From: Mobula hypostoma
Lineage: Eukaryota
Direction of reading: 5' to 3'
NCBI RefSeq assembly: GCF_963921235.1
Contig: NC_086097.1
Location: forward strand, 154,506,001 to 154,570,000
Length of the DNA stretch: 64,000 nucleotides
The position numbers and the translations under genes are program-made. Positions 20,841-22,552 of the stretch are shown here, in pieces (position 1 is the first letter of the stretch; each line of letters begins with the position of its first letter). The notes beneath the pieces are model-generated. The model searched no databases. It saw nothing but the letters and a program-made list of their open reading frames with translations, and was not told the origin of the DNA.

Positions 20841-21124
20841 CATCTCAATTTACAAAATGTGCTGAACCGAAAGTTATCTAATCTTGCATTATCTTTATGT
20901 GTGTCCAGTACCACCAACAAGATTAACTCTTAACTGCATCCACATTTGTGAATTAATTATTGTTTCTCTCATTGTTTGCAATGTCCATATGCAGCCAACT
21001 AATAAATCTATAAAGTTAATTCATTAGAAGATTTTAAACGCGAACAACAGGAATTATGCAGATGCTGGAAATTCAAGCAACATACATCAAAGTTGCTGGT
21101 GAACGCAGCAGGCCAAGCGAGGTG

Positions 21125-21162
21125 CAGTCGACGTTTCAGGCCAAGACCCTTCGTCAGGACTA
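21125..21162 (-). ncRNA. Minimal type I hammerhead ribozyme motif
   Basis: Reverse complement: TAGTC-CTGACGA-AGGGTCTTGGCCT-GAAA-CGTC-GACTG. Confidence 0.75.
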
Positions 21163-21841
21163 ACTGAAGGAAGAGTGAGTAAGGGATTTGAAAGTTGGAG
21201 GGGGAGGGGGAGATCCAAAATGATAGGAGAAGACAGGAGGGGGAGGGATAGAGCCGAGAGCTGGACAGGTGATTGGCAAAGGGGATATGAGAGGATCATG
21301 GGACAGGATGTCCGGGAAGAAAGACAGGGGGGGGGTGACCCAGAGGATGGGCAAGAGTTACATTCAGAGGGACAGAGGGAGAAAAAGGAGAGTGAGAGAA
21401 AGAATGTTTGCATAAAAATGAGTAACAGATGGGGTACGAGGGGGATGCATAAAAATGAGTAACAGATGGGGTACGAGGGGACACCTTATATTCCGTCTGG
21501 GTAGCCTCCAACCTGATGGCATGAACATCGACTTCTCTAACTTCCGCTAAGGCCCCACCTCCCCCTCGTACCCCATCTGTTACTCATTTTTATGCACACA
21601 TTCTTTCTCTCACTCTCCTTTTTCTCCCTCTGTCCCTCTGAATATAACTCTTGCCCATCCTCTGGGTCCCCCCCCTTGTCTTTCTTCCCGGACCTCCTGT
21701 CCCATGATCCTCTCGTATCCCCTTTTGCCTATCACCTGTCCAGCTCTCGGCTCTATTCCTCCCCCTCCTGTCTTCTCCTATCATTTTGCATCTCCCCCTC
21801 CCCCTCCAGCTTTCAAATCCCTTACTCACTCTTCCTTCAGT

Positions 21842-21879
21842 TAGTCCTGATGAAGGGTCTCGGCCTGAAACGTCGACTG
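21842..21879 (+). ncRNA. Minimal type I hammerhead ribozyme motif
   Basis: TAGTC-CTGATGA-AGGGTCTCGGCCT-GAAA-CGTC-GACTG, with stem I AGTC/GACT, palindromic ACGT helix III and a GUC cleavage triplet. Confidence 0.8.
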
Positions 21880-22552
21880 CACCTCTTCCTAGAGATGCTG
21901 CTTGGCCTGCTGCGTTCACCAGCAACTTTGATGTATGTTGTTTCATTAGAAGATGTTCACATTTTACATAAAACAATAGCAAGAACAGGTAAGGCGTTGA
22001 GGGATCCGACCATGCGCATGCAGGTGGAATTGGTTTAATTTGGTATTATGGTAATCTCAGATGTAATGGGCTGAAGTTCTGCCTCCTGTGCTGAACTGTT
22101 CTATGCTTAATAAACATAACTGCTGAATTTGCTAAAACTGATACCTTACACTGGTTGGGCTGAATTTCTCTAATCTTAGTTTCCAGCAATGTTTTATCTT
22201 TTATTTGTTTTGAACTTTATCTGTTTGAATGTTTCCTTCTTTTTTATTTCATTTGTTTTTCTGCAGCTGTGTCTGTCCTCATTCTTTCATTCTTCTTTAC
22301 CTGCAAGAAAACAGACTTGTGCTAAGAGTGAACATTTCTATGTCACCTTGCTTTCATCTTGGGAGTGTTGATATAGCAATCATATGTCGTGAAGCAGAGG
22401 TCTTTTTTAAACAAATCTGTGCAGATTTAGAAATATTCTTCAAATGGATCTCACTTCTGGATGTTTAGATATTTAACTCACTTATCATACGGAATATTTT
22501 ACACTGAAGTTAAACAAAAGCATTTTTTAAAATCTTACCAGATATTACTAAA

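What the first reader, a model, noticed from the sequence alone, without database searches (positions are those of the whole stretch)
21020..21954. Inverted Penelope-like insertion carrying two hammerhead ribozyme cores
Seen: ~400-bp arms that are near-perfect reverse complements, a 13-bp TSD, a ~35-bp tandem duplication at the inversion point (21409-21480), and one hammerhead core per strand (CTGAYGA...GAAACGTC, stem I AGTC/GACT). Established: PLE pLTRs carry minimal hammerheads whose palindromic helix III favours dimeric cleavage, and inverted pLTRs occur in PLE insertions. Inference: this is a young insertion, and any read-through RNA would form a long dsRNA hairpin that masks its own ribozyme (possible ADAR/Dicer substrate).
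Basis: partly seen in the sequence, partly recalled or inferred. Interest (0 to 1): 0.7.

Follow-up and report, generated by a model that had tools for sequence, protein, structure and literature searches.

The report
Mirror-image Penelope retrotransposon insertion
This 909-base insert is two truncated ends of a Penelope-like jumping gene set head to head, each with a minimal hammerhead motif, likely made when both cut DNA ends primed copying; the layout is already described for this element class, so it is ordinary.

Summary
A 13-bp duplication (21020-32, 21942-54) frames 909 bp. The right arm (21481-21941, +) carries the last 22 codons of a GIY-YIG endonuclease ORF, the 3' region and a minimal hammerhead. 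The left arm (21033-21480, -) is an inverted 5'-truncated copy with a second hammerhead and a ~32-42 nt tail that the right arm lacks. Arms match at 357 of 369 aligned bases, with three indels. An inverted copy, a tail at one end, opposite-strand hammerhead pairs and siRNA from inverted Penelope copies are all published. Contigs of two related organisms (flanks 1-1.5% different) stop aligning exactly at the end of the duplication, so the site is likely empty there: the insertion is lineage-specific but not brand-new. Both arms share rare family variants, pointing to one source element. The best mechanism (inferred) is that both staggered DNA ends primed cDNA at the element's two start sites, and the cDNAs were then joined. 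The hammerheads lie on opposite strands, so they cannot dimerise in cis; transcription of this locus is untested. This scan found the same layout before, in this genome and two others. Ordinary.

The parts
21020..21032 (.). Left copy of the 13-bp target-site duplication
   Evidence: contigs of organisms B and C stop aligning at 21032
21033..21074 (-). Tail present only on the left arm (about 32 nt covered by family contigs plus about 9 nt that few copies reach); inferred distal reverse-transcription start
   Evidence: tail-bin depth 0.41-0.71 of the next bin inward; older copies at 47418 and 34815 carry it, the copy at 4201 does not
21033..21480 (-). Left arm, 448 nt: inverted 5'-truncated copy of the element's terminal region, with a 14-nt deletion after 21118
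   Evidence: loose ends show that family copies carry the 14 nt
21126..21162 (-). Minimal type I hammerhead motif of the left arm (core CUGACGA...GAAA, predicted cut after 21130)
21409..21480 (.). 35-nt tandem duplication (21409-21443, 21446-21480); both units end at the same G-run of the template
21481..21559 (+). Unpaired spacer: last 22 codons and stop (21482-21550) of the GIY-YIG endonuclease ORF; 5'-truncation point of the right arm
   Evidence: translation; 20 of 22 and 18 of 22 identical to the C-termini of P0018 and P0001; family contigs continue upstream with ORF-like sequence at 21481 (table 7)
21481..21941 (+). Right arm, 461 nt: ORF end, pyrimidine-rich 3' region, hammerhead; ends at the short (proximal) 3' end without tail
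21842..21879 (+). Minimal type I hammerhead motif of the right arm (helix I 4-5 bp, core CUGAUGA, extra A, helix II 4 bp, GAAA, palindrome ACGU, predicted cut after C21874)
21942..21954 (.). Right copy of the 13-bp target-site duplication

Best explanation
This is a 5'-truncated, non-coding insertion of an abundant endonuclease-bearing Penelope-like retrotransposon (likely Neptune clade, in a likely cartilaginous-fish genome) in the known 'inverted copy plus one-sided tail' layout, likely made by both ends of a staggered DNA cut priming reverse transcription. Shown: the TSD, two head-to-head copies of the element's 3' end, the tail on one arm, the ORF end on the other, and two hammerhead cores on opposite strands. 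Inferred: the GIY-YIG endonuclease cut an AT-rich site with a 13-nt stagger leaving 3' overhangs. The top-strand end primed cDNA at the distal start site (left arm, with tail). The bottom-strand end primed at the proximal site (right arm, no tail). Both stopped after about 450 nt, the left one after a 37-nt slip back that made the duplication, and the two ends were joined with at most 1 nt of microhomology. The hammerheads are passengers of the terminal repeat. In this layout each would be masked by the antisense arm transcribed before it, and the copy most likely has no function of its own.
For: Anatomy. The ORF end matches the C-termini of ray and skate proteins, and an older in-window copy links to full RT+GIY-YIG proteins with a CX2-5CxxC linker (17 of the 34 stored hits with enough upstream sequence carry the linker motif). 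The two ends match the two alternative family ends: of 3 clear older copies in the window, 1 stops at the short end and 2 carry the tail. Published: inverted 5'-truncated copy and 30-40 bp tail at one end (PMC8557442, PMC3846280); Poseidon_Ac cuts and extends both strands, its two RT start sites bound the tail, the protein is a predicted dimer, and the hammerhead is dispensable for insertion in vitro (PMC11167929). The spacer is sense on the top strand, so it belongs to the right-arm cDNA, while the tail belongs to the left-arm cDNA; a simple fold-back of either cDNA cannot give both. There is no palindrome of 4 bp or more at the centre junction. The target context is 81% A+T. Likely empty site in organisms B and C; both arms share alleles at 21083, 21256 and 21358, found at 19%, 38% and 3.8% of family depth in run X1.
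Against: One locus cannot prove a mechanism. In vitro, the RT start site did not differ between strands (PMC11167929), so the tail/no-tail asymmetry is not required by that work. Craig et al. ascribe the tail to endonuclease resolution of an intermediate, and Arkhipova et al. ascribe inversions to self-priming. The arms differ by 3.0% (11 of 366) against 1.5% (7 of 472) and 1.0% (2 of 203) for flanks against organisms B and C; this is not significant (Fisher p 0.15, pooled 0.09) but higher than a single identical template predicts. No listed contig spans the centre junction (table 8 is cut). The clade rests on relatives, because this copy lacks the linker and RT.
Confidence: 0.6

Rival explanations
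1. Same element and layout, but the inversion arose by self-priming or fold-back into a palindromic DNA intermediate, which the endonuclease then trimmed asymmetrically (tail left on one end) before or during integration.
For: Proposed in PMC3846280 (Discussion: self-priming on an antisense template) and PMC8557442 (tail from EN-mediated resolution). Both arms share rare alleles, as a copy of itself would. Both duplicated units begin or end at the same template site.
Against: No palindrome at the junction and a 79-nt loop. At most 1 nt of microhomology at the fold point (by inspection). It needs an extra step to remove the tail from the template arm. Arm divergence is, if anything, above the flank clock.
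Confidence: 0.25
2. Two separate events (a second copy inserting into or beside the first in opposite orientation, or a later rearrangement) followed by gene conversion between the arms.
For: Penelope elements can target their own terminal repeat (PMC11167929, part 2). The arms differ by 11 substitutions and 3 indels. The family is very abundant.
Against: A single perfect TSD frames the whole unit, with no second TSD at the centre. Both arms share a 3.8% allele. Relatives appear to lack the whole unit.
Confidence: 0.08
3. The inverted copy is a functional dsRNA source (siRNA or A-to-I substrate) that helps silence the family or regulate a host transcript.
For: Very stable predicted duplex. Inverted Penelope copies gave matching siRNAs in transgenic Drosophila (PMC3681739 passages). 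Arms are still 97% alike.
Against: The insertion is lineage-specific, with decay in the arms. The family is so abundant that one more hairpin adds little (inference). No promoter or host exon was identified.
Confidence: 0.05
4. Assembly artefact (mirror duplication of one arm).
For: Inverted repeats trouble assemblers (PMC8557442). The centre junction is not among the listed contig pieces.
Against: The arms differ at 12 positions and 3 indels, with arm-specific tail and spacer, which a mirrored read would not produce. A 362-nt contig with 0 differences spans the left junction in run X1, though X1 may be the assembly's own sample. Perfect TSD.
Confidence: 0.02

Closest known systems
Insertion structure of canonical EN+ Penelope-like elements (Arkhipova et al. 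2013, PMC3846280; Craig et al. 2021, PMC8557442)
   Same: Inverted 5'-truncated copy at the 5' end, head-to-head orientation, 30-40 bp tail at one end only, short TSD (8-10 bp in the rotifer cases).
   Different: TSD is 13 bp; no palindrome at the inverted junction; a 35-nt tandem duplication there; only 22 codons of ORF remain.
Minimal hammerheads (min-HHR) of metazoan Penelope-like elements (Cervera and De la Pena 2014, PMC4209133)
   Same: Core boxes, helix I of 4-5 bp, no helix III, palindromic 15.2-16.2, unpaired base between 9 and 10.1. The paper also reports pairs of min-HHRs 100-700 bp apart on opposite strands; here the cores start 690 nt apart.
   Different: Helix II is 4 bp (7-8 bp in Schistosoma), and the 10.1-11.1 pair is G-U rather than G-C in both arms.
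Poseidon_Ac of Anolis carolinensis (Frangieh et al. 2024, PMC11167929)
   Same: Two alternative 3' ends separated by the tail, AT-rich target, ATG within the hammerhead core.
   Different: Different clade (relatives here carry the Neptune-type linker). In the parts read, and in a term search of its main text, the paper does not link two-strand extension to inverted insertions.
L1 twin priming (recalled, no call)
   Same: Both target ends prime cDNA, giving a 5' inverted segment inside one TSD.
   Different: In L1 the two segments are different parts of one RNA; here both cover the same terminal repeat, which needs two repeats on one RNA or two RNAs.
Non-LTR retrozymes (bioRxiv 10.64898/2026.07.22.740005)
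   Same: Non-coding, hammerhead-bearing, derived from Penelope terminal repeats.
   Different: Retrozymes are direct tandem units with same-strand hammerheads; this is a single inverted insertion.

Membership tests
EN+ Penelope-like element | ORF ending in a C-terminal GIY-YIG endonuclease | tested here: met
   22-codon end plus stop matches the C-termini of P0018 (20/22) and P0001 (18/22) and the older copy at 3695-3937 (76% over 21 aa). That copy hits P0128, which passes the Pfam cut-offs for RVT_1 and GIY-YIG. The fragments alone gave no Pfam hit.
EN+ Penelope-like element | Telomerase-like RT domain in the same ORF | not testable with these tools
   Copy is 5'-truncated; no whole genome held; RT seen only in related proteins.
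EN+ Penelope-like element | Terminal repeat with a hammerhead motif in sense orientation | tested here: met
EN+ Penelope-like element | Inverted 5'-truncated copy, optional 30-40 bp tail at one end, short TSD | tested here: met
   definitions
Neptune clade | CX2-5CxxC zinc-finger linker between RT and EN | tested here: inconclusive
   Not retained in this copy. Present in the best hit P0001 and in 17 of 34 stored hits with 60 or more aa upstream of the YIG motif (152 proteins examined). No tree was built.
Minimal type I hammerhead (min-HHR) | Core CUGANGA, GAAA, UH at the cut; helices I and II can pair | tested here: met
   Both arms; two-helix fold -7.0 kcal/mol; the 41-61 nt motifs fold no better than shuffles (z -0.48 to 0.48).
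Minimal type I hammerhead (min-HHR) | No helix III; palindromic positions 15.2-16.2; extra base between 9 and 10.1 | tested here: met
   ACGU palindrome and extra A, read from the sequence.
Minimal type I hammerhead (min-HHR) | G10.1-C11.1 pair (typical, outside the paper's descriptor) | tested here: not met
   G-U in both arms, G-C in the older copy at 4201. It may weaken activity. The descriptor figure itself was not seen.
Minimal type I hammerhead (min-HHR) | Stem covariation across copies | tested here: inconclusive
   0 of 9 pairs with a change on both sides in 6 in-window rows, two of which are the arms themselves and one a doubtful homologue. Too few and too decayed.
Minimal type I hammerhead (min-HHR) | Self-cleavage as a dimer | not testable with these tools
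   Bench assay needed; published min-HHR activity is low or protein-assisted.
Rfam hammerhead families | Match to a covariance model | tested here: not met
Non-LTR retrozyme | Two or more consecutive direct tandem units, each with a hammerhead | tested here: not met
   Cores are on opposite strands; definition.

The most novel reading that the evidence does not exclude
The insertion is a fossil of two-ended priming by a Penelope RT-endonuclease dimer on one precursor RNA that carries two terminal repeats: each overhang of a 13-nt staggered cut primed at a different one of the two internal start sites and on a different repeat. This would explain together the near-equal arm lengths (448 and 461 nt), the one-sided tail, the shared rare alleles and the slight excess of arm divergence over the flank clock. 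With a family this abundant, the model could be tested on thousands of such insertions.
Probability: 0.3. Interest if true: 0.55.

Novelty: new member of a known kind. Interest (0 to 1): 0.2.

Why it matters
By itself it matters little: one more truncated copy of a very abundant retrotransposon in a published layout. Its value is as a clean specimen for an open question, how Penelope-like elements make their inverted copies. TSD, both start sites, spacer polarity and a likely empty site in relatives are all readable here, and they favour priming from both DNA ends over simple fold-back. That would matter if it held across many insertions.

Tried and rejected
No whole genome is held, so no genome-wide count of inverted insertions. 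Degenerate hammerhead patterns found 0 loci in metagenome, viral and prokaryote contigs. Rfam: no hammerhead match; the microRNA and other matches are far below gathering score and mostly reflect the long hairpin. Word-indexed protein search for longer relatives found none; the near-length search found 3. The atlas gave only unnamed clusters and one set with GIY-YIG in 15% of members. Host gene: 146 of 264 candidate frames of 55 aa or more (those I chose between 4588 and 40296) were scanned against Pfam; 5 had a hit (one Spin-doc zinc finger, two RVT_1, two unrelated hits below cut-off) and none indicated a host exon. Short exons would be missed, so intronic versus intergenic stays open. Expression: no RNA holder listed; the one guessed-RNA run laid had no cover over 4 unique-flank bins, which is no evidence either way. 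The strand-switch joints 21445 to 21557/21559 were rejected as evidence for recurrent inversion: they are ordinary uninverted family copies seen against a reference that holds the left arm and spacer. Summed contig depth (millions against about 11 for unique flank) shows great abundance but is not a copy number. MITE or foldback DNA transposon was rejected because the arms are asymmetric and hold a retroelement ORF end. Hits at 24815-24920 are chance matches inside another RT fragment. The co-fold of two hammerhead copies gave an extended duplex, not a catalytic dimer; such programs cannot model that fold, so it was not used.

Full report
Observation. The features are at the stated coordinates. 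The 13-mer TTCATTAGAAGAT occurs only at 21020 and 21942 in the window. Between the copies lie 909 bp. The arms 21075-21445 and 21560-21943 align as reverse complements at 357 of 369 bases, with gaps of 14, 1 and 2 nt; one mismatch (21077/21941) sits at the right junction, leaving 11 of 366 internal. The 35-nt duplication is exact. A scan of both strands for the intact core found 2 hits in 64 kb, at 21847 (+) and 21157 (-). Rfam does not see them, as expected for a motif without helix III.

What it is. The 79 nt between the arms translate on + to the last 22 residues and stop of a protein. An older copy at 3695-4301 keeps 81 residues of the same ORF (76% identical over the shared 21 aa). Searching those 81 residues over 1.84 billion representatives gave 354 hits at E<=0.001. 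The best is a stingray protein, others come from skates, and hit P0128 is a full RVT_1 plus GIY-YIG protein. The target's peptide matches the C-termini of P0018 and P0001 at 20 and 18 of 22 residues. A CX2-5CxxC linker, the Neptune mark according to PMC8557442, is in 17 of the 34 hits long enough to show it. So the right arm is the 5'-truncated end of an endonuclease-bearing Penelope-like element, likely Neptune clade, and the host is likely a cartilaginous fish (inference from the hits). The left arm is the same terminal region inverted, plus a tail at 21033-21074. Of three clear older copies in the window, the one at 4201 ends at the short end like the right arm, and those at 47418 and 34815 carry the tail. 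In four runs, depth over the tail bin is 0.41-0.71 of the bin inside it, consistent with two common ends, though edge effects lower that bin.

Age and origin. I laid 4 of the 24 listed runs on 20450-21559, a stretch with one arm only. In X1 (organism A, possibly the assembly's own sample) a 362-nt contig with no difference runs from unique flank through the TSD 40 nt into the insert. In X5 (organism B) an 888-nt contig and in X9 (organism C) a 218-nt contig both stop aligning exactly at 21032, the last base of the TSD, with 634 and 15 letters left over. The leftover letters were not shown, and I infer that they lie beyond 21032; an empty site is the natural reading. Flank differences are 7 of 472 (B, three contigs) and 2 of 203 (C). 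Both arms carry G at 21256 (38% of family depth in X1, 0.3% in X5, 0.02% in X9) and T at 21083 (19%, 2.7%, 0.2%), so they belong to a subfamily amplified in organism A's lineage. Both also carry T at 21358 (1.7-3.8% in all four runs), which points to one source element. The left arm has private changes at 21309, 21361 and 21408 (about 1% of depth; the right arm has the family letter), and family copies carry the 14 nt that it lacks. Only 40 variant rows were shown and 76 were hidden, so 8 of the 12 mismatches could not be polarised. Arm divergence (3.0%) exceeds flank divergence but not significantly (p 0.15; pooled 0.09); 3 of the 11 changes are CpG-type transitions. The insertion is therefore lineage-specific but not fresh. 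The centre junction is not among the listed contig pieces.

How it likely formed. For one TSD to frame two outward-pointing element ends, both 3' overhangs of a 13-nt staggered cut can each be extended by cDNA. The top strand then begins in the tail and the bottom strand at the short end, the two start sites that bound the tail in Poseidon_Ac, whose protein cuts and extends both strands in vitro (PMC11167929, parts 1-2 of 4 read). The spacer is sense on the top strand and so belongs to the bottom-strand cDNA, which lacks the tail; the tail-bearing cDNA lacks the spacer. Neither can be a simple fold-back copy of the other. No palindrome of 4 bp or more lies at the junction, unlike the rotifer cases for which self-priming was proposed (PMC3846280, passages and Discussion). 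I give two-ended priming 0.6 and a self-primed intermediate trimmed by the endonuclease 0.25. These steps are inference from one locus.

The hammerheads. Both keep the core and fit the text description of min-HHRs (PMC4209133, parts 1-2 of 4 read; figures and supplements not seen), except for G-U at 10.1-11.1 and a short helix II. That paper already reports pairs on opposite strands 100-700 bp apart, and low cleavage only as dimers. In Poseidon_Ac the ribozyme needs protein and is dispensable for insertion. In-window covariation was uninformative (0 of 9 pairs with a two-sided change, 6 rows). Because the arms are head to head, either read-through transcript makes the antisense arm first and carries only one sense hammerhead, so masking is expected (duplex about -750 kcal/mol) and a cis dimer is impossible. 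Whether the locus is transcribed is unknown. siRNAs from inverted Penelope copies are already reported in Drosophila (PMC3681739, passages).

Novelty. The layout is described as frequent in PMC8557442 (passages). The bioRxiv retrozyme paper (part 1 of 5 and passages) defines a different, tandem class. A search for Penelope with 'twin priming' and 'inverted' listed 2 papers on other topics, seen as listings only, and a term search of PMC11167929 found no link between two-strand extension and inversions. So the two-ended model was not found in the held library, which lacks most subscription papers and in which I read no supplements. The study of dimeric cleavage by Penelope-associated hammerhead variants appeared only as a cited phrase and was not read. 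Earlier notes of this scan report the same layout in two other genomes, and 81 notes in this genome fit 'Penelope hammerhead'; they are unchecked and were used only as leads. Verdict: real, new member of a known kind, interest 0.2.

Noticed in passing
window 34689-34832: Older mini-insertion of the same element group with apparently the same layout: a tail-bearing arm on the minus strand followed by about 19 nt resembling the short 3' end on the plus strand; no clear TSD.
   Followed up: partly
window 3695-4301 (+): Older copy with the C-terminal half of the GIY-YIG domain, decayed hammerhead and short 3' end, abutting a LINE-like ORF1 remnant (2985-3743, minus).
   Followed up: yes
window 47290-47670 (-) and 48494-48590 (+): Further decayed hammerhead-bearing ends of related families; in those at 4201, 34815 and 47418 the core GAAA reads AAAA, as CpG decay would give.
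   Followed up: partly
window 21831-21841, also 4193-4203 and near 47418: A pyrimidine tract ending in CAG, like a 3' splice site, lies just before or within the 5' strand of hammerhead helix I, followed by the ATG inside the core. PMC4209133 notes that the Drosophila virilis Penelope intron ends at helix I, and the Poseidon_Ac ORF starts at stem II.
   Followed up: no
window 21409-21480: Both units of the tandem duplication end at the same G-run, 10-12 nt past the ORF stop on the template, suggesting a recurrent stop or template boundary there.
   Followed up: partly
window 20524-20820: The left flank holds another moderately abundant repeat (summed depth 10^4-10^5), unidentified.
   Followed up: no
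window 7114-8063 (+): Broken ORF with a Spin-doc zinc finger (PF18658), likely a DNA-transposon remnant; much of the rest of the window is broken LINE reverse-transcriptase sequence.
   Followed up: no
proteins P0001, P0013, P0018, P0026: Several predicted proteins (ray and skate for the three whose source was looked up) carry this element's endonuclease end, three of them fused to unrelated host domains, probably gene-prediction artefacts.
   Followed up: no
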